From contig NZ_JAVZIN010000010.1 in NCBI RefSeq assembly GCF_038871235.1, positions 1 to 60,813 of the forward strand: 60,813 nucleotides of DNA, written 5' to 3'. A program made the translations under genes and the position numbers. This DNA comes from Candidatus Hadarchaeum sp. Lineage in GTDB: Archaea > Hadarchaeota > Hadarchaeia > Hadarchaeales > Hadarchaeaceae. The stretch's first letter is position 1. Each line of letters starts with the position of its first letter. A model generated the notes under the pieces. It ran no database searches. It was given only the letters and a program-made list of their open reading frames with translations, and was not told the DNA's origin. Shown here piece by piece: positions 17 to 23,984 of this stretch.

Positions 17-1036
17 TTGAGAACCATTGAACTTCGCGGTGATAAGGTTGTTCTTGTTGATCAGACACAGCTGCCGTGGAGACTGGTGAGAGTAAGATGT
101 CACAGCGCTGAGGAGGTGGCTGCGGCCATCGAGGAAATGAAGATTCGGGGTGCACCGGCGCTCGCCGCGGCAGCAGCCATGGCTCTGGCTATCACGGCTC
201 TCCGGAGCAGGGCCAGGACCAAGGAGCAGCTAATGCGGGAGCTGGAGCGCGCGGGCGGAAGGATAAGAAGGACCAGGCCGACCGCGGTCAACCTCTTCGT
301 GGGGCTGGAGCGAGTCCTCAGCGCCGCAAGGTCGGCGGTCGATATTGATGGGGTCCGCGAAGCCGTGGTCCGCGAGGCAAGAGCCATCGCCCAGGAGGAC
401 GTCAAGGTCAACAGGAAGATAGGTGAGAACGGGGCGGCGCTTCTGGAAGACGGCGATGTCGTCCTGACCCACTGCAATGCGGGCTCGCTGGCGACGGTTG
501 ATTATGGGACCGCTTTAGGCGTGATTCGTGCGGCACGAAGCGCCGGCAAGAAGATCGAGGTCATCGCAACTGAGACCAGGCCGCTCTTGCAGGGGGCGAG
601 GTTAACGGCTTGGGAGCTGAGTCGCGAAGGAATTCCGGTCAGGGTGGTCACAGATGGAATGGTGGGATATCTAATGGCTAAAGAGATGGTTGATAAGGTA
701 GTCGTCGGTGCCGATAGAATCGCCGCCAACGGCGACGCCGCCAACAAGATCGGGACCTACTCGATTGCGGTGCTGGCCAAGGAGCACAGGATACCGTTTT
801 ACATCGCGGCACCCACGAGCACGGTGGACCCGAAGGTAAAGACGGGAGCCGAAATACCGATCGAGGAGAGGCGTCCTGAGGAAGTGATCTTCTTCCGCGG
901 AGTAAGGATCGTACCCAAAGGTGTGAAAGTTTTTAACCCCGCTTTTGACGTCACTCCTGCCCGCTACATCACGGCGTTCATCACTGAAAAAGGAGTCGTC
1001 AAACCGGGCGAGCTCTCAAAACTGTTTAAAAGCTAA
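17..1036 (+). CDS. mtnA: S-methyl-5-thioribose-1-phosphate isomerase (eIF-2B alpha-like family)
   Basis: Motifs IRGAPA, RPTAVNL, THCNAGSLAT, ETRPLLQGARLT, GADRI, NKIGTY, NPAFDVTP; TTG start. Confidence 0.92.
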   Translation: MRTIELRGDKVVLVDQTQLPWRLVRVRCHSAEEVAAAIEEMKIRGAPALAAAAAMALAITALRSRARTKEQLMRELERAGGRIRRTRPTAVNLFVGLERVLSAARSAVDIDGVREAVVREARAIAQEDVKVNRKIGENGAALLEDGDVVLTHCNAGSLATVDYGTALGVIRAARSAGKKIEVIATETRPLLQGARLTAWELSREGIPVRVVTDGMVGYLMAKEMVDKVVVGADRIAANGDAANKIGTYSIAVLAKEHRIPFYIAAPTSTVDPKVKTGAEIPIEERRPEEVIFFRGVRIVPKGVKVFNPAFDVTPARYITAFITEKGVVKPGELSKLFKS

Positions 1037-1253
1037 CCGCCACGACCTTTTTCACGCCGGGTATCTGTTTTTTCAGCTCTCTTTCGATGCCGAAGGCGAG
1101 CGTCATCGTCGACATCGGGCAGCCGGCGCAGGCCCCGACCAGCCTGACCTTGACTATCCCATCATCGGTCACGTCGACGAGCTCAACGTCGCCTCCATCG
1201 GCCTGCAAAGCTGGCCTGATCTTTTCAATCGCGGCTTCAACTTCCTTCTTCAT
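1026..1253 (-). CDS. NifU C-terminal domain (Nfu) Fe-S carrier protein
   Basis: IRPALQADGGDVEL...GACAGCPMS (CxxC); start moved to ATG at 1253. Confidence 0.9.
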   Translation of the reverse strand: MKKEVEAAIEKIRPALQADGGDVELVDVTDDGIVKVRLVGACAGCPMSTMTLAFGIERELKKQIPGVKKVVAVSF

Positions 1254-1302
1254 TGGATCACACTTAAGATTGAGGCAGCCACCGTTTAAGCCTGTTGTTT
1301 CT

Positions 1303-2583
1303 TCAGGCCCCAAACTTGGGACTCTTGCCCATCAGGTCGACGATGATCGGGATGAGGTCCTTGCCGCGGATTCTACCCAGTCCCCCTTTTGCGGCCGCCC
1401 TTTCGCTAAAAGTTTTAACATCGTCAGTGCGCACTCCCGGGCCAGAGATGACCACAGGAACCGGGTCGGCGGTGTGGTTTTTGGCGCTGATTGGTGTGGT
1501 GTGGTCGGCGGTGATGACGATGAAGTCAAAGGCGTCGATGAACTGGTTAATGATAGTATCCACTCGCTCGATGATTTCTATCTTGGCCTTGATGTTTCCA
1601 TCGTGGCTGGCTTCATCAGCCCCTTTTACATGCAAGATGACGAAGTCGTGGTTGTTTATTAGATTAAGCACAGCCTTAGCCTTGGCGTTGAGGTCGGTGT
1701 TGACGCTTCCCGTTGCTCCAGGGACATCGACCACGGTCATCCCGGCCAGCTTGCAGACTCCCTTAACCAGTGCCGCTGCAGCCACGCAGGCCCCATTGAT
1801 CCTGAACCTCTCCTGAAAAGGTTTCAGGTGTGGAACCACACCACCACCGCGGATGAGGAGGTAATTGGCCGGCGGCAGACCGTTCTTGACGCGTTCGAGG
1901 TTAATCGGGTGCTTCTTCAAGACCTCGTGGGCTTTTTGCGAGAATTCGTTCAATAGCTTTGCCGTTTTAGCCGCCCACCTCCGGCGCATCACATATTTTC
2001 TGACACCACCGGCGATGATCGGATATGCGGGGACAACCTCTTCCTGTGACTGTAAAAAGGGTTCAACCTTCAACGGTCTTTTGCCCTCCTCATGGGGGTC
2101 GGAGTCGGAGACCTCGTGCGTGAGTCCTTTTCCCCTGAGCACAAGGGTTGCCCTATGAGCCACGGTGCTCCTGAAGATGAACTCGGCTCCCTTAAGCTTT
2201 ATTTTCTGCACCGCCTCGGCTAGGGCCTTGGTATCCTGAATTCTTCCTGCCCTTCTGTCGGTGATGATCATGTTTTTGTCCACGGTGGCGTAGTTGACCC
2301 TGAAGGCGATGTCTCCCGGATGCAGGTCAATACCAGCGCCAGCCGCCTCAAATGGACCTCTTCCCGTGTAGGTTTCGTAGGGATCGTAGCCCAGTAGCGC
2401 TAGATGAGCCGTGTCGCTTCCTGGCGTTGTTCCAGGAGCGATGGTGTCCATTATCCCGCTGATGCCGCGCTTGGCCAGCCAGTCCATGTTGGGCTTCTTG
2501 GCGATCTCCAGAGGAGTCTTGTGGGCCAGCGCGGGGATGGAGCGGTCGGCCATCCCGTCGCAGATGATCAAAAGGGTCTTCAT
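1303..2583 (-). CDS. apgM: 2,3-bisphosphoglycerate-independent phosphoglycerate mutase, archaeal type
   Basis: DGMADR, PGSDTAHL, GRGPFEAAG, DEASHDG, TADHTTP, HTADPVP. Confidence 0.92.
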   Translation of the reverse strand: MKTLLIICDGMADRSIPALAHKTPLEIAKKPNMDWLAKRGISGIMDTIAPGTTPGSDTAHLALLGYDPYETYTGRGPFEAAGAGIDLHPGDIAFRVNYATVDKNMIITDRRAGRIQDTKALAEAVQKIKLKGAEFIFRSTVAHRATLVLRGKGLTHEVSDSDPHEEGKRPLKVEPFLQSQEEVVPAYPIIAGGVRKYVMRRRWAAKTAKLLNEFSQKAHEVLKKHPINLERVKNGLPPANYLLIRGGGVVPHLKPFQERFRINGACVAAAALVKGVCKLAGMTVVDVPGATGSVNTDLNAKAKAVLNLINNHDFVILHVKGADEASHDGNIKAKIEIIERVDTIINQFIDAFDFIVITADHTTPISAKNHTADPVPVVISGPGVRTDDVKTFSERAAAKGGLGRIRGKDLIPIIVDLMGKSPKFGA

Positions 2584-2630
2584 TCACTCAACCAACATAC
2601 ATACTAATTTGGTAGTAAAAAAGTAGTGTG

Positions 2631-2739
2631 GGGCCCGTGGCGCAGCCTGGATGGCGCGGCAAGTGGAAGCACCCGCAGGGCTTCGGGCTTATGGGAGGAA
2701 ACCTGTAGGTCGTGGGTTCGAATCCCACCGGGCCCGCCA
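2631..2739 (+). tRNA. tRNA-Arg(UCG) with two introns (29/30: 2662-2678; 37/38: 2687-2700), CCA encoded
   Basis: Acceptor GGGCCCG/CGGGCCC, T-arm GTGGG-TTCGAAT-CCCAC; removing both BHB-flanked inserts gives anticodon arm GCAGG-CTTCGGA-CCTGT. Confidence 0.88.
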
Positions 2740-2774
2740 CTTCAATTCTTATTTTTCTAGTGAGAGATAGCAAT

Positions 2775-2863
2775 GGGCCGGTAGTCTAGCTTGGATAGGA
2801 CGCGGGCCTCCGGGCTCCAAGGGGGGAGAGCCTGCAGCACGGGTTCGAATCCCGTCCGGCCCG
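2775..2863 (+). tRNA. tRNA-Arg(CCG) with canonical 37/38 intron (2814-2828)
   Basis: Acceptor GGGCCGG/CCGGCCC, anticodon arm CGGGC-CTCCGG|A-GCCTG, T-loop TTCGAAT; no encoded CCA. Confidence 0.88.
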
Positions 2864-2975
2864 TATCGTTTGATTCAGAAAAGTCTCAACAAATTTTAGA
2901 AAATCAATTGTGATATGAGCAACAGAATCAAAACGCTATATAGCACAGCAAAACAAGAGGGTGTGGGTGAGTAAG

Positions 2976-3380
2976 ATGGAAAAAGGCAAAATCTGGGTTG
3001 TAGTTGTCATAGTTGCAGTAATAATCATCGCTAGCGCGGTATATGTTTTCTATTTCACCGGCTCCTGGGGTGTGGATTTGGAAACACGGGCCAGAGATTT
3101 CGTCGTTCTTCTTAAAGAGTGGAGATTCAATGAAGCATACGGGCTCTTCAATGAGCAGATGGCTGCAGCCATAACGGTGGGACAGCTTGAGGCCATATGG
3201 AATGGTGTGATCGGTGAGGTCGGGGCATACAAGGGCATTACTGGAACGAGAGCCGCAACTGAAGCCGGGTATGAGGTAGTATACGTTACCACGGAGTTTG
3301 AGAGAGCTTCACTTGATGTGAAAGTGGTTTTCGATGGAGCGTCAAAGATTGCTGGACTTTGGTTTTTTCCCAAAGGCTAG
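2976..3380 (+). CDS. Membrane-anchored DUF3887-like domain; probably the 5' part of a frameshifted DUF3887-alpha/beta hydrolase fusion
   Basis: N-terminal TM helix, then AYGLFNEQM...LEAIW...FD..KIAGLWFFP typical of DUF3887. Confidence 0.6.
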   Translation: MEKGKIWVVVVIVAVIIIASAVYVFYFTGSWGVDLETRARDFVVLLKEWRFNEAYGLFNEQMAAAITVGQLEAIWNGVIGEVGAYKGITGTRAATEAGYEVVYVTTEFERASLDVKVVFDGASKIAGLWFFPKG

Positions 3381-4311
3381 CTACACCCCTCCAGCATATG
3401 CCCATCCGGAGTCGTTCATTGAAGAAGAAATCCTCGTTGGTGCTGAGGGTTGGGCGCTGCCGGCCACCTTGACGGTACCTAAGGGAAATGGTCCTTTTCC
3501 CGCCGTGGTTCTCGTACATGGTTCTGGGCCTCACGACAGGGATGAAACCATTGGTCCCAACAAGCCCTTCAAGGATTTGGCTTGGGGCTTGGCCACTAAA
3601 GGAATTGCGGTGCTTCGGTACGAGAAGAGGACCAAACAATATCCAATCAAATGCGCTGAGATGATTGAAAGCTTTACCGTTGAGGATGAGACGATTGCCG
3701 ATGCCTTGGCGGCGGTCGAAGCACTTCGCAGAGATAAAAGAATTGACCAAGAAAGGATTTTTGTTCTTGGACATAGCTTGGGAGGAATGCTTGCGCCCAG
3801 GATAGGCGTTCGAGATGGTAAGCTGTCCGGGCTGATCCTCTTAGCCGCCAACGCTAGGAATCTTGCGGACCTGATTCTGGAGCAAGTTCATTATCTTGCC
3901 TCCTTGGATGGAAAAATAGACGATGCGGAGGCCAAGCAGATAAAAGAAACAGAAAACATAGTCAGAAAGATTAAAGAGCTCGACATCGCCAGCGGAGAGG
4001 TTGTGTTGGGCGCGTCGAGGGCCTACTGGGAAGACCTGATGACATACGATCCCCTGAGGACCGCAAGAGAGCTTAGCCTACCCATGTTGATCCTGCAGGG
4101 GGGACGGGACTATCAAGTCACCCTGGATGACTTTAACCAGTGGAAAGAATGTTTAAGCGATCGAGAGTCAGTGACTTTTAAACTCTATGATAATCTCAAC
4201 CATCTTTTCATTTCAGGTCGTGGCGTGCCCAGTCCTGCCGAGTATCAGCTTGCCGGCAACATGGATCAAACTGTAGTTGAGGATATCGCGGAATGGGTGA
4301 AGTCGCATTAA
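3334..4311 (+). CDS. Alpha/beta hydrolase (serine peptidase/esterase); probably the 3' part of the frameshifted fusion
   Basis: HGSGPHDRDE, GHSLGG nucleophile elbow, GGRDYQV, LNHLF catalytic His. Confidence 0.8.
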   Translation: MERQRLLDFGFFPKASYTPPAYAHPESFIEEEILVGAEGWALPATLTVPKGNGPFPAVVLVHGSGPHDRDETIGPNKPFKDLAWGLATKGIAVLRYEKRTKQYPIKCAEMIESFTVEDETIADALAAVEALRRDKRIDQERIFVLGHSLGGMLAPRIGVRDGKLSGLILLAANARNLADLILEQVHYLASLDGKIDDAEAKQIKETENIVRKIKELDIASGEVVLGASRAYWEDLMTYDPLRTARELSLPMLILQGGRDYQVTLDDFNQWKECLSDRESVTFKLYDNLNHLFISGRGVPSPAEYQLAGNMDQTVVEDIAEWVKSH

Positions 4312-4359
4312 GAACCGCTTAAAATAATGTTTTTTCCTGCCCACCGGTAGATTTCACTT

Positions 4360-5652
4360 TTAACCGTCAAACTCTTGGATAACCGTCCCGAGTAAATAAG
4401 TGTGCGCTGCCCCAACGACTTTGACTTTCAGGAATTTTCCCAGTAAATTTTCTGTTGAGTGAACCACGATCGGTTTGTAGGCGAAATTCCTCCCAATCCA
4501 AGTGTTTTCTTTTCTGCCCTTTTCGTCGATCAGACATTCACCTTCCCATCCGATCCATTTTTTATTTTTTTCCAGCCAGATCGTTTTGCAAAGATTGAAT
4601 AGTTCTTTAGACCTTTCTTTGATGACGTCTCCCGGAAGCTGTTCATACCCAGAAGCCTTAACCCAGGGCCGAGCACCGAACTTCGACACATTGGTGACCT
4701 CGGGCTTTATTCTCCTGATCAGCTCCAAAGTTCGTTTGAAATCAGAGTCGCTCTCCTCAGGAAATCCGGTTATGACGTCGGTCGCCAGTGTCAGCTCAGG
4801 CAATTTTTCCCTGAATTCTTCCACGATTTCCACAAAATCTTTTACTTGGTAACCGCGTTCCATTAGTCTGAGTATTTTATCCGATCCCGCTTGCAGCGGC
4901 AGATGGATGAACTTGAAAATTTTCGGGTTTCGGTATGCTTCGATTAGCTCTTTCAGCATGTTCTTTGCATGCAAGGGATTAATCATACCTACACGAACGA
5001 AAAATTTGCCTTCGACCCCACATACTGCATTCAACAATTCCGCCAAATTTGTCCCGCCGTCTAGGCCATAGCAACCGTTGTCTAGACTAGTGAGCCAGAT
5101 CTCCTTACAGCCCTCAGCCACAGCCCTTTTAACCTCGCTAACTATCTCCTTCAGAGGATAGCTGAAGAGCTTACCCCGGTAGGGCTCGTGGCAGTAGCTG
5201 CATTTTTGCAGGCAGCCGCGGGCAATGGGTACAATGCCGATCACCGGATTTATTCGTCGTCGCGGTAAGTTGAGTTTGGGTTTGTTTTGGTCCTCTAGGA
5301 AGACAACTTTCTTTCCTTCCAGAGCTGAACCGGCCGCTTCAACTATTTTTTCAACAGAGTCAGGGGCTACTAACGAGGCATCTGGATTCAACTTTTCTAT
5401 CAACCTTCTTTCCGTCTTTGTCATGCAGCCGGCGACGATTAAGGGTTTCTTTAAATTGGTCATTTGTTTGATCATATGGAGCATTCGGTTGAAAGTTCGA
5501 AATTTAACTATGCAGGTAAAAATTACATTAAGGTCTGACTTTTCGGAGTTGTCCACCAGCTCAAAACCAGCTTGGGTCAATAACCCGGCGGCAATTTCAT
5601 AGTCCGCCAAGTTTGAGCTGCAGCCGTGGACGACGAGGTAGACCTTAGGCAT
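4360..5652 (-). CDS. tRNA t6A37 methylthiotransferase (archaeal e-MtaB/MiaB-like radical SAM)
   Basis: N-terminal UPF0004 cysteines (HGCSSN, TCIV, AGC), CLQKCSYC radical SAM motif, C-terminal TRAM-like domain. Confidence 0.85.
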   Translation of the reverse strand: MPKVYLVVHGCSSNLADYEIAAGLLTQAGFELVDNSEKSDLNVIFTCIVKFRTFNRMLHMIKQMTNLKKPLIVAGCMTKTERRLIEKLNPDASLVAPDSVEKIVEAAGSALEGKKVVFLEDQNKPKLNLPRRRINPVIGIVPIARGCLQKCSYCHEPYRGKLFSYPLKEIVSEVKRAVAEGCKEIWLTSLDNGCYGLDGGTNLAELLNAVCGVEGKFFVRVGMINPLHAKNMLKELIEAYRNPKIFKFIHLPLQAGSDKILRLMERGYQVKDFVEIVEEFREKLPELTLATDVITGFPEESDSDFKRTLELIRRIKPEVTNVSKFGARPWVKASGYEQLPGDVIKERSKELFNLCKTIWLEKNKKWIGWEGECLIDEKGRKENTWIGRNFAYKPIVVHSTENLLGKFLKVKVVGAAHTYLLGTVIQEFDG

Positions 5653-19570: not shown

Positions 19571-19969
19571 TTAATTTCCTTCGCCTTTAGGTTCAATAAG
19601 TACTGCTTCGACGGTGCCCGCCTGTCCCGGACGGTTGGTGATTTTTGCCTTGCCCAGCTCGGTTTCGATGATTGCGCCACGGGTCAAGATATTTCTCCGG
19701 ACGAAGTGCATGTCGGCCGGGTTCTGAACCACGGTGATAATCTTGGCCTTCTGCGCCTTTCCTGTTTTAGGGTCAACCACGTTGGCAACATCGGTGTAAA
19801 GCAGCTTCTTCTTTTCCCCGCCGCCAAAGGTGCGTATCTTTATGGTCTTTTTAGGCCCTATTTTTGGCTCGAGAAACTCGCTGCCCATCTCCCGCTTGCG
19901 CTTATGGCGGCTCGGCCAGATTCTCCCGCCGCTGGGTTTCTTCAGGGATCTTCCTTGCCATCTCGCCAT
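19571..19969 (-). CDS. rps8e: 30S ribosomal protein S8e
   Basis: WQGRS..KPSGGR, RKREMG, RRNILTRGAII, RPGQ. Confidence 0.95.
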   Translation of the reverse strand: MARWQGRSLKKPSGGRIWPSRHKRKREMGSEFLEPKIGPKKTIKIRTFGGGEKKKLLYTDVANVVDPKTGKAQKAKIITVVQNPADMHFVRRNILTRGAIIETELGKAKITNRPGQAGTVEAVLIEPKGEGN

Positions 19970-20012: not shown

Positions 20013-20522
20013 TTATCTCAGCCGATTTTGAATTTCCTCTCGGATTTTATCCATGTCATCTTCAAATCCGAAATAGCTGGCAAACTTCTTGGTGGTTCGC
20101 AGCATACGGGTCCTGCCGTATGGCCTTGATTCAACGAAACCCAGACTGATCAGCTGCCTAATTTGGTCATAGACACGGTTGCCGCGGCACTCCGCCAGCT
20201 TAGCCTGAGATATGTTTTGGTTGTAAGCAATCATGGCCAGGGTCTTTATCGCGCCACGTGTGAGCCTAATTTTCGGGATAACTCCCTCAAGCTTTGGTAT
20301 GTATTCTTCATTGAGGCGGAGAGTGTAAGTGTCCTTGCCGGTTTCCGCCATGCAAAGTGGCCCGCCTCTTTTGTTGTAATCCTTTTTTAAATCCTCAATT
20401 ATTTTTCTGATGTATGTTTCCGAAGAAGTGCCGATTAATTTTTTCATCTCCGCTAGCGTGAGCGGACGGTCAGCGGCATAAAGTGCGGCTTCAATTATCG
20501 CCCGATCCTGCTTAATTCCCAT
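20013..20522 (-). CDS. scpB: Segregation/condensation protein B (kite)
   Basis: IIEAALYAA, TLAMIAYNQ, RG, TTKKFASYFG; directly follows scpA. Confidence 0.9.
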   Translation of the reverse strand: MGIKQDRAIIEAALYAADRPLTLAEMKKLIGTSSETYIRKIIEDLKKDYNKRGGPLCMAETGKDTYTLRLNEEYIPKLEGVIPKIRLTRGAIKTLAMIAYNQNISQAKLAECRGNRVYDQIRQLISLGFVESRPYGRTRMLRTTKKFASYFGFEDDMDKIREEIQNRLR

Positions 20523-21177
20523 TCTTGGCACCCTGCTTCGGAATTGAGATGTAGATTTCTCCAAACATCTCCGGCTGTTCCAGAGTTATCTTGCCTTCGG
20601 CGCAGAGGTAAAGCAGGAGAAGCAACATCCTGGCAATGGCAATCCTAGTCTTTTCCTCAATAAGTTCGCTAAAGGTCAGGCTCTTTCCCGATTCCATCAG
20701 TTCTAGAATCCTCTTGTGTAGAATTGCCATGTGTTTGAGTATGTTGATTTCATACTCATCAACGGTGTGCGTGAGTTTCTCGATTTTTTTACTGATTACT
20801 GGCTTCTTTTCAGGCACTTCCGATAGGGCCTCCTTGAGCGCGCCAAGGAGATCTTCCAGGGTTATCTTTCGTGGTGTAGACTGGATGATATTTATCTGGC
20901 CCAAATCAGGCAAGTCCAGATCGAGCATTTCCTCGATTTCTTCACCATCAGTTTTTTTGGCGTGACCGTTGAGCACATGGTCGGACTTTATCCTCAACAA
21001 CACCGATGAGGCGAGCAGCACACGCCCTGAAGCTCTTAGGTCAATTTCGACTATTTCTCGCACGCGTTGGATGTAAAGGTAGGTCAGCTTTTCAATGTCG
21101 ATGTCCCAAGGGTCCAACTTGTGCTGTTGGACCAGTTCGAGGAGCGTCTGTATGGGTTGGTCTGTGAAAATTGTCAT
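20512..21177 (-). CDS. scpA: Segregation/condensation protein A (kleisin)
   Basis: LDPWDIDI, SGRVLL..SVLLRIKS, LLYL...LEQ.EMFGEI C-terminal winged helix. Confidence 0.9.
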   Translation of the reverse strand: MTIFTDQPIQTLLELVQQHKLDPWDIDIEKLTYLYIQRVREIVEIDLRASGRVLLASSVLLRIKSDHVLNGHAKKTDGEEIEEMLDLDLPDLGQINIIQSTPRKITLEDLLGALKEALSEVPEKKPVISKKIEKLTHTVDEYEINILKHMAILHKRILELMESGKSLTFSELIEEKTRIAIARMLLLLLYLCAEGKITLEQPEMFGEIYISIPKQGAKNGN

Positions 21178-21181
21178 CTTC

Positions 21182-23440
21182 TCAGCTCCCGACTCCGGAG
21201 AGTTCGACGGAGTAAATCTTGGAAATGCCGTTTTCCTTTGTAACTCCGAAGAGCCTATCGGCTACGGACATTATTGAGTCATGTAAGGTTATCACCACAA
21301 TCTGGGAGTCCTTTGAGAACTGTTGCAGCATCTCGGCCACCCTGATCCTATTTTTCGGGTCCAAATGTGCGTCTATTTCATCGAGCACATAAAAGGTGGT
21401 CGGACGATAGCGCTGCAGGGCAAATATGAAGGAGAGCGCCGTCAGGGCCTTCTGGCCTCCGGATAATGAGCCGATATAGGCGGCCCCCGATCCCTCTGGT
21501 CTAGCGATTATTTCAAGCCCCCCTTCAAATGGTGATTGTTCGTTCTCCAGCTTCAACATGGCATCGCCGTTGGGTGAGAGTTCCTTAAAGATTTGGGTAA
21601 ATTGTTTGGAAATTTCGTTGAAAGTCTTCATAAAAACGTGTTTCTTTTTCTCATCAATTTCCGCCATAAACTTCAGCAGTGATTGTTTTTCTGCCATCAG
21701 CTTGTCGTATTTTGTTTTTTCTTCGTTGTATCTGCGCTCAGATTCTCTGAAGTCTTGGATGGCTCGAAGATTCACCCTTTCGCTGAGCGGCCCCAGCTCA
21801 GCCTCTATTTCCTGGGCTCGTTTTTCCAAGTCTTCTGCGTCAATATTTTTGGGTAAATTCACTTCACCTATCTTCTTCAGGTTCGTGTTTATCTCTTTTA
21901 ATTCATTGCTCAGGGCTTCTCGTTGAATTTGAAGCCTTTGCAGGTCACCTTCTATAACTCTGATCTTTGTCTCCAGCTCCCTTTCTCGCTTGGATATCGA
22001 CTCCAATTTCTGTCGCAAGAGATTTCTACCGTTTGTAAGCGATTCAATTGATTTTCTAATTTCCTTTTCTTGAGAGTCAGCATTCTTCAACTTAATCTGC
22101 ACCTCGTGTATTTTTGCGTTGAGTTCCATTATCTGCTTGGTCAACTCGTCGCGCGCGCGCTGCAGACCAGCCAGTTCTTCGCGCAGCATTCTCTCCTCAG
22201 CTCTTGCCGAGTCCATCTGTTTGATTTTTTGTGGGTCAATTTTGTCTGAGATCCTTGCCACGATTACGGAAATCTCGTTCAGCACTTCATTGATCTGTTT
22301 CAGGATATTTTTGGCAGAACTCAAGGATTCACATTTAACGAGCGAGCGGTATAGCTCCGAGAATTTATTGCGCACTTCATTAAATTTGGAAAATGTGGAC
22401 TCCAAAGTTTCGCCATCGGTTGTCTTCGAATCGCTCATTTTTTTGATTTTGGCGTCGAGCGATTCTATATCTCGATCAAGTGCGGATTTTCGATCCAGCG
22501 TTCTTTTTAAGATGTCGCTCAGGGTGTTGATTTCGGTCCTGGACCTTTCAGCCTCTACCAGCACATCGGAGGCTCTTTTTTCATCAATAGATCTAGAAAT
22601 CACATCTATTTTCACGTTCAACTTGTCCTTTACTTCGAGTGTTTTCTGGTATCTTTTTTTGAGTTCTTCGATTTCATCTGTGAACTTTGATATTTTTGTC
22701 TCCAACTGCGCAATCTTTTCCGAACATTTTTCCTTTTTAATCATTAAAAGAGCGCCTTGAATCTGTTCCCGCTCACGTTTTAGTTGTTTAAAGTGAATTG
22801 CAGTTTCCATTTGTTCGCGCAGGTTCTCCATCTGGGTGGATATTTCAGTCAGGACGGCGCCGACGTTGTTCAGGTTGGCCTCGACCTTTTGAAGCTCGTT
22901 CAGTGATTTTTGTTTCTTTTCATCATATTCCGCCACGCCCGCCAGATCATCGATTATCTTTCTTCGCTCAATTGGGTCCATGTTGAAAAATCTGTTGACT
23001 TCCCCCTGCATCACAAAGTTGTATCCGCCGGGACAGGTCATCTTAGGCGCCAGCAGGTCAATGATCTCCTCTCTCGTTGCCCGGCGCTTATTTATCCTAT
23101 AGGTGCACCTACCGTCGCGGTGCAACTGTCTCGTGATTACAACCTCCTTTGAGTTTATGTGTAGGCCGCCATCGCTGTTGTCGAAATGCAGAGAAACTTC
23201 GGCGAAGGAGGCAGGTCGGCTTCCGTTGCCTCCGTTAAAGAGCAGGTCTGAGAATCTCTCTGCCCGCATGGTTTTAGCGCTCATCCAGCCTAAGACGAAA
23301 CACAAAGCATCAATGATGTTGCTTTTTCCCATCCCATTTGGGCCGACAATGGCCGTCAGTCCCTTTGATAGCGGGATGGTGACTTTAGTGTTTCCAAATG
23401 ATTTGAAGCCTCTCAGCTCAATTTTGCTTATGTACGGCAC
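21182..23440 (-). CDS. smc: Short (752 aa) SMC ATPase with no recognisable hinge
   Basis: GFKSF, Walker A GPNGMGKSN, Q-loop VMQG, VNLRAI, signature LSGGQK, Walker B LDEIDAHLD; first gene of the smc-scpA-scpB operon. Confidence 0.9.
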   Translation of the reverse strand: MPYISKIELRGFKSFGNTKVTIPLSKGLTAIVGPNGMGKSNIIDALCFVLGWMSAKTMRAERFSDLLFNGGNGSRPASFAEVSLHFDNSDGGLHINSKEVVITRQLHRDGRCTYRINKRRATREEIIDLLAPKMTCPGGYNFVMQGEVNRFFNMDPIERRKIIDDLAGVAEYDEKKQKSLNELQKVEANLNNVGAVLTEISTQMENLREQMETAIHFKQLKREREQIQGALLMIKKEKCSEKIAQLETKISKFTDEIEELKKRYQKTLEVKDKLNVKIDVISRSIDEKRASDVLVEAERSRTEINTLSDILKRTLDRKSALDRDIESLDAKIKKMSDSKTTDGETLESTFSKFNEVRNKFSELYRSLVKCESLSSAKNILKQINEVLNEISVIVARISDKIDPQKIKQMDSARAEERMLREELAGLQRARDELTKQIMELNAKIHEVQIKLKNADSQEKEIRKSIESLTNGRNLLRQKLESISKRERELETKIRVIEGDLQRLQIQREALSNELKEINTNLKKIGEVNLPKNIDAEDLEKRAQEIEAELGPLSERVNLRAIQDFRESERRYNEEKTKYDKLMAEKQSLLKFMAEIDEKKKHVFMKTFNEISKQFTQIFKELSPNGDAMLKLENEQSPFEGGLEIIARPEGSGAAYIGSLSGGQKALTALSFIFALQRYRPTTFYVLDEIDAHLDPKNRIRVAEMLQQFSKDSQIVVITLHDSIMSVADRLFGVTKENGISKIYSVELSGVGS

Positions 23441-23683
23441 TACATCTCCCTTGGGGGTTGTTCACGCTACCCCCTCTTAAGCCCGCCTCCAAAAGCCAGT
23501 TTATTATCGCCATAGAGGGTTAAAAAATTTACGTTTTCATAAATAAAATCGATTTTAAAGAGAAAATAAGCCAAAATTAGCCATTTAACTACCCAAAAAT
23601 AAAAAGAAAGCCTTTTAAATCTTTTTTATTTTTTTCAAGTTCAAAGTTAGCCTAGGTGTGATACTTCTTCCAAAATCCAACAA

Positions 23684-23698
23684 CGATAGATTTATAAA
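23684..23698 (+). promoter_or_regulatory. Candidate BRE + TATA box for the TFS-like gene
   Basis: cgataga-TTTATAAA about 40 nt upstream of ATG 23739. Confidence 0.5.
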
Positions 23699-23738
23699 CC
23701 TCTCGAGGTCTAAATGCTCGAATAAGTTGGCGATAGTA

Positions 23739-23984
23739 ATGGAGTTCTGTCCTAAGTGTGGTACTGTTCTTGTTCCGGCCAAGGTGGGGCGCTGTAAGAG
23801 ATTGACCTGCCCCAGATGTGGTTACAAAGGCAAGGTCAAGAAACTCTCCTCTTATAAGATCAGCGAGAAGGGCAAAGAGGCACGAGAAGTGGCTATTATC
23901 GAGGAAAAGAAAACTAAGAAGCGACCGATATTAAATGAGTACGAAATCGAACCTCCGGAGTATGAGGAGGAGATGTACGAGTAA
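23739..23984 (+). CDS. TFS/RpoM-like zinc-ribbon protein (N-terminal ribbon only, acidic tail)
   Basis: MEFCPKCG...CPRCGY; no second ribbon and no catalytic DE hairpin. Confidence 0.75.
   Translation: MEFCPKCGTVLVPAKVGRCKRLTCPRCGYKGKVKKLSSYKISEKGKEAREVAIIEEKKTKKRPILNEYEIEPPEYEEEMYE

What the first reader, a model, noticed from the sequence alone, without database searches (positions are those of the whole stretch)
20013..23440. Hinge-less 'mini' Smc in an intact smc-scpA-scpB operon
Seen: one uninterrupted 752-aa ORF has all Smc head motifs (Walker A, Q-loop, LSGGQ, Walker B/D-loop) and the Smc-type VNLRAI motif, and is followed after 4 bp by scpA and then overlapping scpB. Between the heads there are two coiled-coil arms (about aa 170-340 and 405-600) joined by about 55 aa (aa 345-401, nt about 22240-22410) that read as two amphipathic helices turning at KCESLSS. 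There is no Gly-rich hinge segment and no CxxC zinc hook. Established: canonical prokaryotic Smc is about 1150-1200 aa and closes the Smc-kleisin ring through a globular hinge with conserved glycines, while Rad50 uses a zinc hook. Inference: roughly 400+ aa (hinge plus distal arms) are missing, yet kleisin and kite are retained. This may be a condensin variant with half-length arms that dimerises through a helical-hairpin apex or acts as an open complex. Similarly short Smc proteins may exist in other small-genome lineages, so novelty needs checking.
Basis: partly seen in the sequence, partly recalled or inferred. Interest (0 to 1): 0.88.

Follow-up and report, generated by a model that had tools for sequence, protein, structure and literature searches.

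The report
Hinge-less half-length Smc in Hadarchaeales archaea
This archaeon and its whole order carry a chromosome-organising Smc protein that has lost the hinge domain and about half of each arm yet keeps its partner genes, giving a natural test of what the hinge is needed for.

Summary
Window 21182-23440(-) encodes a 752-aa Smc with all ATPase motifs, no SMC_hinge and no zinc hook. scpA follows after 4 nt and scpB overlaps scpA.

It is not an artefact or a strain deletion. Orthologues of about 705-780 aa occur in 40 of 41 related genomes, down to 37% identity. No hinge above cut-off was found in 65 of 65 genomes of the order, while the one other genome of the phylum has a 1144-aa Smc with a hinge. 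The gene is under purifying selection, with dN/dS 0.08-0.12. On a head-only tree the family is one clade among full-length Smc.

The arms are about 175 aa. They end in a 55-aa helical hairpin (aa 346-400) set between two variable linkers. This hairpin holds four of the six best-conserved arm positions: F353, F360, L363 and L387.

I read it as a working mini Smc-ScpA(B). Closure through the hairpin is inferred, not shown.

Hinge-less SMC was reported once, in marine Actinobacteria. I found no report for Hadarchaeota. Other archaea have replaced the hinge independently, for example with a CPxC zinc hook.

The parts
21182..23440 (-). smc: 752-aa hinge-less mini-Smc (GTG start; stop codon at 21182-21184)
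   Evidence: ORF. Pfam SMC_N 2.2e-66, no hinge. TIGR02169 613 bits, below the 729.4 cut-off. Foldseek top hit 5xei, P. yayanosii Smc head with coiled coil and joint, E 3.6e-42.
22937..23440 (-). N-terminal half of the ATPase head, aa 1-168 (Walker A aa 33-41, Q-loop Q145)
   Evidence: Motifs read from the sequence. Invariant columns in 27 orthologues. Strands and helices in the AF2 model.
22418..22936 (-). N-terminal coiled-coil strand of the arm, aa 169-341, including the conserved neck at aa 165-190
   Evidence: AF2 helices 169-289 and 292-337. The helix runs to aa 341 in the fragment model.
22406..22417 (-). Variable linker before the apex, aa 342-345; the wider loop is aa 338-345
   Evidence: pLDDT below 50 at aa 340-344. 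Gaps in 15-33% of 123 sequences.
22241..22405 (-). Apex helical hairpin, aa 346-400: helix A 346-368, turn 369-372 (KCES), helix B 373-400. Conserved F353, F360, L363, L387.
   Evidence: AF2 models. Four of the six best-conserved positions between aa 215 and 540 lie here; 0 of 123 family members have CxxC in aa 251-520.
22187..22240 (-). Variable segment after the apex, aa 401-418; the least conserved 20-aa block of the protein
   Evidence: Mean information 1.40 bits for block 401-420, with gaps in up to 33% of sequences. pLDDT 56 for aa 401-410.
21695..22186 (-). C-terminal coiled-coil strand of the arm, aa 419-582, with breaks at aa 525-534 and 556-559 (joint region) and the VNLRAI motif at 556-561
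   Evidence: AF2 helices 403-524, 535-555 and 560-621. Match to 5xei, Smc head with coiled coil and joint.
21185..21694 (-). C-terminal half of the ATPase head, aa 583-752 (signature LSGGQ 659-663, Walker B/D-loop 683-694, H720)
   Evidence: Motifs. Invariant S660 G661 G662 D687 E688 D690.
20512..21177 (-). scpA (kleisin), 221 aa; starts 4 nt after the smc stop
   Evidence: ORF. Pfam SMC_ScpA 1.9e-15; C-terminal Rad21_Rec8 winged helix 2.7e-4, below cut-off. Found next to smc in all 21 family loci with downstream sequence.
20013..20564 (-). scpB (kite), 183 aa from the TTG start; overlaps scpA by 53 nt
   Evidence: ORF. Pfam SMC_ScpB 2.3e-34. TIGR00281 81.5 bits, below the 89.2 cut-off. Conserved after scpA in 21 of 21 loci.

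Best explanation
This is the only Smc of a Candidatus Hadarchaeum genome. It is a functional orthologue of prokaryotic Smc that has lost the globular hinge and the distal half of each arm. The short form is fixed across the order Hadarchaeales.

Shown:
- The head, neck and joint are canonical.
- The ATPase motifs are intact.
- The gene is under purifying selection.
- The gene sits in a conserved smc-scpA-scpB operon.
- The two arm strands are about 175 aa each and roughly balanced in length, which by rule of thumb is about 25-30 nm against about 50 nm for canonical Smc.
- The arms end in a discrete 55-aa helical hairpin set between two variable linkers.

Inferred:
- The complex works like Smc-ScpAB. 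Two Smc engage their heads on ATP, and ScpA bridges the neck of one Smc and the cap of the other.
- The apex hairpins of two Smc pack into a four-helix bundle. This would replace the hinge as the constitutive dimerisation point and close a ring or rod about half the usual size.
- Whether ScpB binds ScpA here is not shown.
For: Orthology:
- SMC_N 2.2e-66.
- SMC_prok_A 613 bits, against 104.7 for the best Rad50 model and 138.7 for ASRP.
- Foldseek top hits are archaeal Smc head and coiled-coil structures: 5xei at E 3.6e-42, then 5xns and 4i99.
- hhalign against 15 full-length Smc gives probability 100% and 36% identity.
- On a head-only tree, the 12 mini-Smc rows form one clade (SH-aLRT 100) among hinge-bearing full-length Smc.

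Sole Smc, no hinge elsewhere:
-. The other SMC_N proteins in the genome are a Rad50 next to Mre11 and an SMC5/6-like protein.

Fixed and selected:
- 40 of 41 genomes have an orthologue.
- 0 of 65 genomes of the order have a hinge over cut-off. The one other genome of the phylum has a 1144-aa Smc with a hinge at aa 506-617.
- 120 of 120 best clusters list no PF06470.
- dN/dS is 0.12 and 0.08 for the whole gene.
- The operon is conserved in 21 of 21 family loci with downstream sequence.

Apex as a module:
- AF2 fragment model with pLDDT 89.4 shows helices 346-368 and 373-400 between breaks.
- F353, F360, L363 and L387 are 91-93% conserved in 123 sequences. They are four of the top six positions between aa 215 and 540.
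- Helix B carries a third hydrophobic stripe at 379/386/393, beyond the a/d core.

Precedent that the kind of dimerisation domain is not critical:
- B. subtilis Smc with a Rad50 zinc hook in place of the hinge supports growth, and shortened arms work at particular lengths (PMC5344682, passages).
- Natural DPANN Smc carry a CPxC hook where the hinge would be.
Against: - No direct evidence shows that the apex dimerises.
- The apex as a whole evolves faster than the arms. Against the closest orthologue its dN is 0.078, compared with about 0.04 for the arms. Its dN/dS is 0.34 with L029 and 0.12 with L030.
- Apart from a few core residues, block conservation of the apex is no higher than that of the arms. 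The conserved hydrophobic residues could therefore be only the core of a monomeric hairpin.
- Structure searches with the fragment found only generic helical hairpins, at Z 9-11, which is within the noise for helical models.
- The protein scores below NCBI's Smc equivalog cut-offs.
- Jeon et al. found that six archaeal ScpA did not bind their ScpB (PMC7055376, passages), so a kite role for ScpB here is uncertain.
- Transcription is not shown. RNA-library contigs cover parts of the gene, but such libraries can hold DNA.
- On the tree the sister-lineage Smc (G041) is not the nearest neighbour of the mini clade, and the forks around the clade are unsupported. Descent in place versus acquisition is unresolved.
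Confidence: 0.6

Rival explanations
1. Open complex. The apex hairpin only caps each arm and does not dimerise. Two mini-Smc are held together by ScpA bridging, ATP-dependent head engagement and perhaps lateral zipping of the arms. DNA would be held in the kleisin compartment, and the Smc compartment would be open at the top.
For: - There is no hinge and no hook.
- The apex evolves faster than the arms overall.
- Head, neck, joint and kleisin are the best-conserved parts.
- The AF2 monomer models fold the hairpin confidently on its own.
Against: - F353, F360, L363 and L387 are more conserved than almost every other arm position, and helix B has an extra hydrophobic stripe. Both are unexpected for a mere cap.
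- Other lineages that lost the hinge acquired a zinc hook, which suggests selection to keep an apex link.
- In B. subtilis the hinge could be replaced by another dimerisation domain. The passages I read do not report that it could simply be removed (PMC5344682).
Confidence: 0.3
2. The apex hairpin is a docking surface for something other than a second copy of itself. Candidates are DNA, the lineage's second SMC-like protein (about 640 aa), or the protein's own arm folded back.
For: - A second SMC-like operon, also without hinge or hook, is conserved in the same lineage.
- Helix B has a third hydrophobic stripe.
- Flexible linkers on both sides of the hairpin would allow it to fold back.
Against: - No evidence of any such contact.
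- The two SMC-like proteins sit in separate operons, each with its own kleisin-like and kite-like genes.
- Whole-fragment alignments to straight hairpins or four-helix bundles have rmsd of about 10 A, which does not support a compact folded-back bundle.
Confidence: 0.07
3. Artefact or decay: an assembly collapse, a strain-specific in-frame deletion, or a pseudogene in decay.
For: The genome is a metagenome-assembled draft of 16 contigs.
Against: - The same architecture is found in 40 of 41 genomes and in 120 of 120 best clusters from several independent sources.
- dN/dS is 0.08-0.12.
- The ATPase motifs are invariant.
- No indels or joints appear in contigs of another study laid on the gene.
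Confidence: 0.01
4. It is not an Smc orthologue but another member of the SMC superfamily (Rad50, ASRP/ClsN, RecN-like) that happens to sit next to scpAB.
For: It falls below the curated cut-offs of both Smc equivalog models and lacks the hinge.
Against: - Smc models score 613 and 516 bits, against 139 or less for every other SMC-superfamily model.
- It is nested among hinge-bearing Smc on the head tree.
- There is no zinc hook.
- A separate Rad50-Mre11 pair exists elsewhere in the genome.
- The conserved operon includes ScpA and ScpB.
Confidence: 0.02

Closest known systems
Canonical prokaryotic Smc-ScpAB (B. subtilis; Pyrococcus/Thermococcus Smc-ScpA)
   Same: Head, neck and joint architecture: 33% identity to P. 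yayanosii Smc in 5xei. All ATPase motifs are present. Kleisin and kite genes sit in the same operon. Placed inside the Smc clade.
   Different: No hinge domain. Arms are about 175 aa instead of about 340 aa. Length is 752 aa against about 1150-1200 aa. Scores below the NCBIfam Smc equivalog cut-offs.
Engineered Mini-Smc and Smc(Zh) of Burmann et al. 2017 (PMC5344682; passages read)
   Same: Shortened arms and a non-hinge apex can still give a working Smc. That paper found a minor natural arm-length mode at 163 aa, close to the roughly 175-aa arms here.
   Different: Those constructs kept a proven dimerisation domain, either the hinge or a zinc hook. Here the apex is a plain helical hairpin of unknown oligomeric state. 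That survey collected sequences with hinge alignments as queries, so as I read its methods hinge-less Smc could not have been sampled.
'Hinge-less' SMC of marine Actinobacteria (PMC12153180, 2025; passages read)
   Same: Natural SMC homologues with heads and a coiled coil but no hinge, found in metagenomes and proposed to be a lineage-specific loss.
   Different: Those are bacterial. The terms ScpA and kleisin do not occur in that paper's main text. I did not compare sequences. Here the lineage, the sister state, the operon and the apex module are defined.
Rad50/SbcC and archaeal ASRP/ClsN (zinc-hook SMC relatives; PMC9389158 passages)
   Same: Hinge-less SMC-superfamily ATPases of 600-900 aa with an antiparallel coiled coil.
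   Different: Those dimerise through a CxxC zinc hook. 0 of 123 mini-Smc have CxxC in the middle. Their family models score far lower here. This genome has its own Rad50-Mre11 pair.
DPANN (Pacearchaeota/Nanoarchaeota-named) Smc of about 950 aa with a central CPxC, and short-arm hinge-bearing Smc of about 800-850 aa
   Same: Archaeal Smc that departed from the canonical hinge or arm plan. The short-arm class has arms of similar length to the mini-Smc.
   Different: They form separate clades on the head tree. They keep a recognisable apex dimerisation device, a hook or a hinge. The Hadarchaeales form has neither.
RecN (bacterial; recalled from memory, not tested beyond)
   Same: An SMC-like ATPase without hinge or hook. 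As I recall, its short coiled coils dimerise through their tips.
   Different: The RecN model scores 58.8 bits against a 407.85 cut-off. RecN is a repair protein with no kleisin or kite partners.

Membership tests
Prokaryotic Smc (TIGR02169/TIGR02168; Pfam SMC_N + SMC_hinge) | Bipartite ABC-type head with Walker A, Q-loop, signature and Walker B/D-loop | tested here: met
   SMC_N 2.2e-66 over aa 3-740. Motifs at aa 33-41, 145, 659-663 and 683-694. These columns are invariant in 27 orthologues.
Prokaryotic Smc (TIGR02169/TIGR02168; Pfam SMC_N + SMC_hinge) | Globular hinge dimerisation domain (PF06470) in the middle | tested here: not met
   No PF06470 hit at E<=1 in the protein or in the genome (the control rang in 11 of 14 known genomes). 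0 of 65 genomes of the order are over cut-off.
Prokaryotic Smc (TIGR02169/TIGR02168; Pfam SMC_N + SMC_hinge) | Score above the curated equivalog cut-off | tested here: not met
   TIGR02169: 613.3 bits against a 729.4 cut-off. TIGR02168: 516.3 against 567.35. The shortfall fits the missing middle of the profile.
Prokaryotic Smc (TIGR02169/TIGR02168; Pfam SMC_N + SMC_hinge) | Descent within the Smc clade | tested here: met
   Head-only tree of 147 rows: the 12 mini-Smc rows are one clade (SH-aLRT 100) inside a group of hinge-bearing full-length Smc. This was a quick search under LG+G4, unrooted, and neighbouring forks are unsupported.
Prokaryotic Smc (TIGR02169/TIGR02168; Pfam SMC_N + SMC_hinge) | Long antiparallel intramolecular coiled coil with a joint near the head | tested here: met
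   AF2 helices 169-337 and 403-621, with breaks at 525-534 and 556-559. Best structural match is 5xei, Smc head with coiled coil and joint. The arms are about half the canonical length.
Smc-ScpAB complex | Kleisin ScpA and kite ScpB encoded with smc | tested here: met
   PF02616 1.9e-15 and PF04079 2.3e-34. The gene order is conserved in 21 of 21 family loci with downstream sequence.
Smc-ScpAB complex | Physical binding of Smc to ScpA and of ScpA to ScpB | not tested
Archaeal ScpA-ScpB binding is doubted in PMC7055376.
Rad50/SbcC | CxxC zinc hook at the apex and an Mre11/SbcD partner | tested here: not met
   No Rad50_zn_hook hit. 0 of 123 family members have CxxC in aa 251-520. Rad50-Mre11 lies elsewhere, on G000:C6.
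ASRP / ClsN (NF045487) | Score above cut-off, and a zinc hook | tested here: not met
   138.7 bits against a 300 cut-off. No CxxC.

The most novel reading that the evidence does not exclude
The Hadarchaeales Smc-ScpA(B) works without any covalent-like link at the arm tips. It would be an open, hinge-free and elbow-free SMC motor of about 25-30 nm. That would mean closure of the Smc compartment, hinge-DNA contacts and hinge-head folding are all dispensable for the core SMC-kleisin activity in a free-living lineage.
Probability: 0.25. Interest if true: 0.85.

Novelty: new variant of a known kind. Interest (0 to 1): 0.66.

Why it matters
The hinge is usually treated as a defining part of every SMC protein. 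Current models give it roles in dimerisation, DNA binding, gating and obstacle bypass. For the last two see the 'swing and clamp' paper PMC8563363 and 'The SMC Hinge is a Selective Gate' PMC12647877; I saw only the search listing and the start of each abstract.

Here a whole archaeal order has kept a selected Smc-kleisin-kite operon while discarding the hinge and half of each arm. That is a natural minimal SMC. It can show which parts of the machine are essential and whether a bare helical hairpin can close the ring. At 752 aa it is also a small, probably thermostable target for structural and single-molecule work.

Together with the zinc-hook Smc of DPANN archaea, it indicates that the Smc apex has been remodelled several times in nature. 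This parallels the engineered Smc(Zh) and Mini-Smc results of Burmann et al. 2017.

Tried and rejected
Apex self-association. Complex prediction on aa 270-470 as two copies, with alignment A1, gave 0.24 and 0.23 against a mark of 0.42. The tool's verdict was 'no answer', and controls were not run. I draw nothing from it either way.

Structure searches with the apex fragment model. Foldseek against the PDB gave no match at E<=0.001. VIA-align wide gave only generic helical hairpins at Z 9-11, within the stated noise for helical models. No family assignment follows.

Deletion boundaries. hhalign of A1 against A2 aligned heads and proximal arms collinearly. The coiled-coil middle aligned with long, low-confidence gaps and the printout was cut. 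I give only the approximate size of the loss.

Weak hinge hits in three genomes of the order (E 0.002-0.01, in ORFs of about 730-770 aa). The one I inspected (L058) is a Hel308-type helicase. The other two (L059, L060) match the same part of the profile but were not inspected.

Reads. Only short Logan contigs were available. Runs X3 and X4 (another study) and RNA-library runs X7 and X11 cover parts of the locus without indels or joints. Uncovered bins, habitat and expression level are not interpretable. Transcription is not shown.

Pseudogene, assembly collapse and strain-specific deletion were rejected; see the rival explanations.

Literature searches that found no report of a short or hinge-less Smc in this lineage:
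- 'Hadesarchaea'+'SMC'
- 'Hadarchaeota'+'SMC'
- 'Hadesarchaea'+'chromosome segregation'
- 'Hadarchae'+'condensin'
- the hingeless/hinge-less search
- the general SMC/hinge/archaea search

The library does not hold most subscription-journal papers, and supplements were closed. Supplementary Table 3 of the van Hooff preprint and Figure S1 and the tables of Burmann et al. may list such sequences; I could not see them.

Hinge status of the 154 representative proteins came from an HMM I built from five hinge segments. I cross-checked it with Pfam on 23 proteins. The rest rest on my HMM alone.

Full report
What is there.

The window belongs to a 1.2-Mb archaeal metagenome-assembled genome of 16 contigs, 94.75% complete. 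The records of its nearest relatives are titled Candidatus Hadarchaeum, Hadesarchaea or Hadarchaeota.

On the minus strand lie four genes in a row:
- smc, 21182-23440, 752 aa, GTG start
- scpA, 20512-21177, 221 aa, starting 4 nt after the smc stop
- scpB, 20013-20564, 183 aa, overlapping scpA by 53 nt
- a 132-aa ORF that I take to be ribosomal protein S8e (recalled from its sequence, not tested)

Pfam gives SMC_N at 2.2e-66 spanning aa 3-740, ScpA at 1.9e-15 and ScpB at 2.3e-34. Neither SMC_hinge nor Rad50_zn_hook appears among the 18 families listed at E<=1. NCBIfam's Smc equivalogs score 613 and 516 bits, below their cut-offs of 729 and 567. One matched stretch joins aa 277-747 to profile positions 697-1165, so the middle of the profile is missing. 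All head motifs are present. Residues 301-451 hold two glycines and one cysteine.

Not an artefact, not a strain deletion.

- The own genome has no hinge match at E<=1, while the same search rang in 11 of 14 control genomes.
- The genome has no other Smc. The other SMC_N proteins are a 799-aa Rad50 next to Mre11 and a truncated SMC-like ORF at a contig end.
- In 41 related genomes, 40 have an orthologue at E<=1e-20. The one miss is a genome about 75% complete.
- Orthologues not cut by contig ends are about 705-780 aa, with identity from 93% down to 37%.
- Across all 66 genomes held for the phylum, only one has a hinge above Pfam's cut-off. This is G041, of another family. Its Smc is 1144 aa with the hinge at aa 506-617, and its scpA-scpB pair sits on another contig.
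- Three sub-threshold hinge hits were found in the order. The one I inspected is a Hel308-type helicase.
- In the 5.8-billion-protein collection, the best 120 clusters come from NCBI, JGI, ENA and Logan assemblies. They are 416-815 aa, some marked partial, and none lists PF06470.
- Contigs from an independent study show no indel or joint on the gene.
- dN/dS for the whole gene is 0.12 against the 93%-identical orthologue and 0.08 against the 85%-identical one.
- smc-scpA-scpB plus the S8e-like gene is conserved in 21 of 29 loci examined. Of the other eight, four end inside smc, three are non-family 'uncultured archaeon' loci, and one is G041.

Anatomy.

AlphaFold2 on the 27-sequence alignment (mean pLDDT 80.2) gives a canonical head and these helices:
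- 169-289 and 292-337
- a low-confidence loop at 338-345
- helix 346-368, a turn at 369-372, helix 373-400
- a kink, then helix 403-524
- a loop at 525-534, then helices 535-555 and 560-621

The best PDB match is the P. yayanosii Smc head with coiled coil and joint (5xei, E 3.6e-42, 33% identity). Other Smc-ScpA head structures follow.

A separate model of aa 296-446 has pLDDT 89.4 and the same four helices. Its PDB matches are only generic hairpins. Either the arm pair or the tip hairpin aligns at about 1-2 A rmsd, but the whole fragment aligns only at about 10 A. This suggests the tip is set at an angle to the arm, though that is a weak inference.

In 123 family members the two linkers (338-345 and 402-418) are gappy, and block 401-420 is the least conserved of the protein. 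Inside the hairpin the a/d positions are hydrophobic. F353 (93%), F360 (93%), L363 (91%) and L387 (91%) are four of the six most conserved positions between aa 215 and 540. Helix B has an additional hydrophobic stripe at 379, 386 and 393. None of the 123 has CxxC in aa 251-520.

Against a special role for the apex: as a block it is no better conserved than the arms, and its dN is higher.

The arm strands measure aa 169-341 and 403-582, about 175 aa each. This is close to the minor natural arm-length mode of 163 aa reported by Burmann et al., and about half the major mode of 341 aa (PMC5344682, passages).

Where it sits in the family.

A search of 1.84 billion representative proteins returned 13 single-stretch clusters of 632-770 aa, which are the mini family. 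Full-length Smc of about 1100-1200 aa came next.

On a tree of head residues only (147 rows; quick IQ-TREE under LG+G4; unrooted), the 12 mini rows are one clade with SH-aLRT 100. They sit inside a group of hinge-bearing full-length Smc, but the forks around the clade are unsupported and G041 is not its nearest neighbour. A single origin of the short form is well supported. Whether it arose in place or was acquired is not resolved.

Other departures from the canonical plan form separate clades:
- Smc of about 800-870 aa with short arms and a hinge
- Smc of about 950 aa with a central CPxC. These score 532-543 bits on the Smc model against about 91-109 on the best Rad50 models, and carry names such as Candidatus Pacearchaeota and Nanoarchaeota.
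- A few proteins of 779-838 aa with neither hinge nor hook

How it most likely works.

Shown: an intact, selected Smc head, neck and joint, and kleisin and kite genes in a conserved operon with close or overlapping gene junctions.

Inferred: ATP-driven head engagement and asymmetric bridging by ScpA, as in Smc-ScpAB.

For the missing hinge I favour a four-helix bundle formed by two apex hairpins as the constitutive link. I put this at roughly 0.45 on its own terms. I give 0.6 to the wider statement that this is a working mini-condensin whose apex module matters.

The main rival, at 0.3, is an open complex held together only by kleisin, heads and arm zipping.

[quoted passage not shown] Whether ScpB binds ScpA here is open, because six archaeal pairs tested by Jeon et al. 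did not bind (PMC7055376, passages).

Novelty.

One paper describes 'hinge-less' SMC homologues in marine Actinobacteria from metagenomes. The terms ScpA and kleisin do not occur in its main text (PMC12153180, passages).

Burmann et al. gathered Smc sequences with hinge alignments as queries, so as I read their methods hinge-less forms could not have entered their length survey.

The ASRP/ClsN family is hinge-less but has a zinc hook (PMC9389158, passages).

Six searches found no paper on a short or hinge-less Smc in Hadarchaeota. Supplements were closed and subscription journals are largely absent from the library.

I therefore rate it a new variant of a known kind: an Smc by descent and by partners that fails one defining feature of the family.

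Noticed in passing
G000:C11:51776-54851 (L004/L064); complete copy in L063 (G002:C5) at 728-4075(-): A second SMC-like operon in the same lineage. It encodes a 634-647-aa SMC-like ATPase with no hinge and no CxxC, cut by the contig end in G000. Genes of 263/264 aa and 197/206 aa follow. These give weak but coherent Pfam hits to Nse4_C (E 0.01-0.02) and to SMC_Nse1 (0.03-0.07) and MAGE (0.09). This fits the SMC5/6-related archaeal complexes described in preprint 10.1101/2024.01.07.573240, section 8. The best 120 clusters are 57-100% identical, and every name given by a source is a Hadarchaeota-type name.
   Followed up: partly
Proteins P0161, P0185, P0201-P0204, P0206, P0208, P0217, P0218, P0223, P0261, P0152 and the relatives of P0203: A large archaeal clade whose source names include Candidatus Pacearchaeota and Nanoarchaeota. 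Its Smc is about 950 aa and has a central CPxC zinc-hook motif where the hinge should be. Smc models score 532-543 bits against about 91-109 for the best Rad50 models. Some members are about 1480 aa and carry intein domains. This is a natural counterpart of the engineered Smc(Zh) chimera.
   Followed up: partly
L054:2998-5463(+), L055:3001-5529(+); P0143, P0180 and others: Smc of about 800-870 aa from 'uncultured archaeon' records. They have a normal hinge (Pfam 1e-29 to 1e-31) but arms of only about 170 aa. They form their own clade on the head tree.
   Followed up: partly
Proteins P0221, P0244, P0246, P0214 (779-804 aa) and P0150 (838 aa): Further short Smc-like proteins with neither a Pfam hinge nor CxxC. 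The first four group with the zinc-hook clade. P0150 is sister to a hinge-bearing 961-aa protein. This suggests more independent losses. Their organisms are unknown.
   Followed up: partly
window 19571-19969(-): A 132-aa ORF that looks like ribosomal protein S8e (my reading, not tested) follows scpB on the same strand in all 21 family loci that reach that far.
   Followed up: partly
window 23438-23440 and the orthologue start codons: The start codon nearest the aligned N-terminus is GTG in 24 of the 27 family genes and TTG in the other 3, never ATG. My script picked the nearest start codon, so this is only a hint.
   Followed up: no
window 23658-23984(+): A 108-aa ORF upstream of smc and divergent from it. 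It has two CPxCG motifs (a zinc-ribbon look) and a lysine- and glutamate-rich tail.
   Followed up: no
G000:C6:30000-36000 (L062) at 836-4529(+): An Mre11-like gene (438 aa) overlaps the start of a 799-aa Rad50-like gene. Both score well below NCBIfam's cut-offs.
   Followed up: partly
window 21048-21280, 21688-21981, 22308-22455, 22645-22885: Contigs from two metatranscriptome-labelled sediment runs (X7, X11) lie on parts of smc and on the smc/scpA junction, at 90-100% likeness. This is weak and is not proof of transcription.
   Followed up: partly
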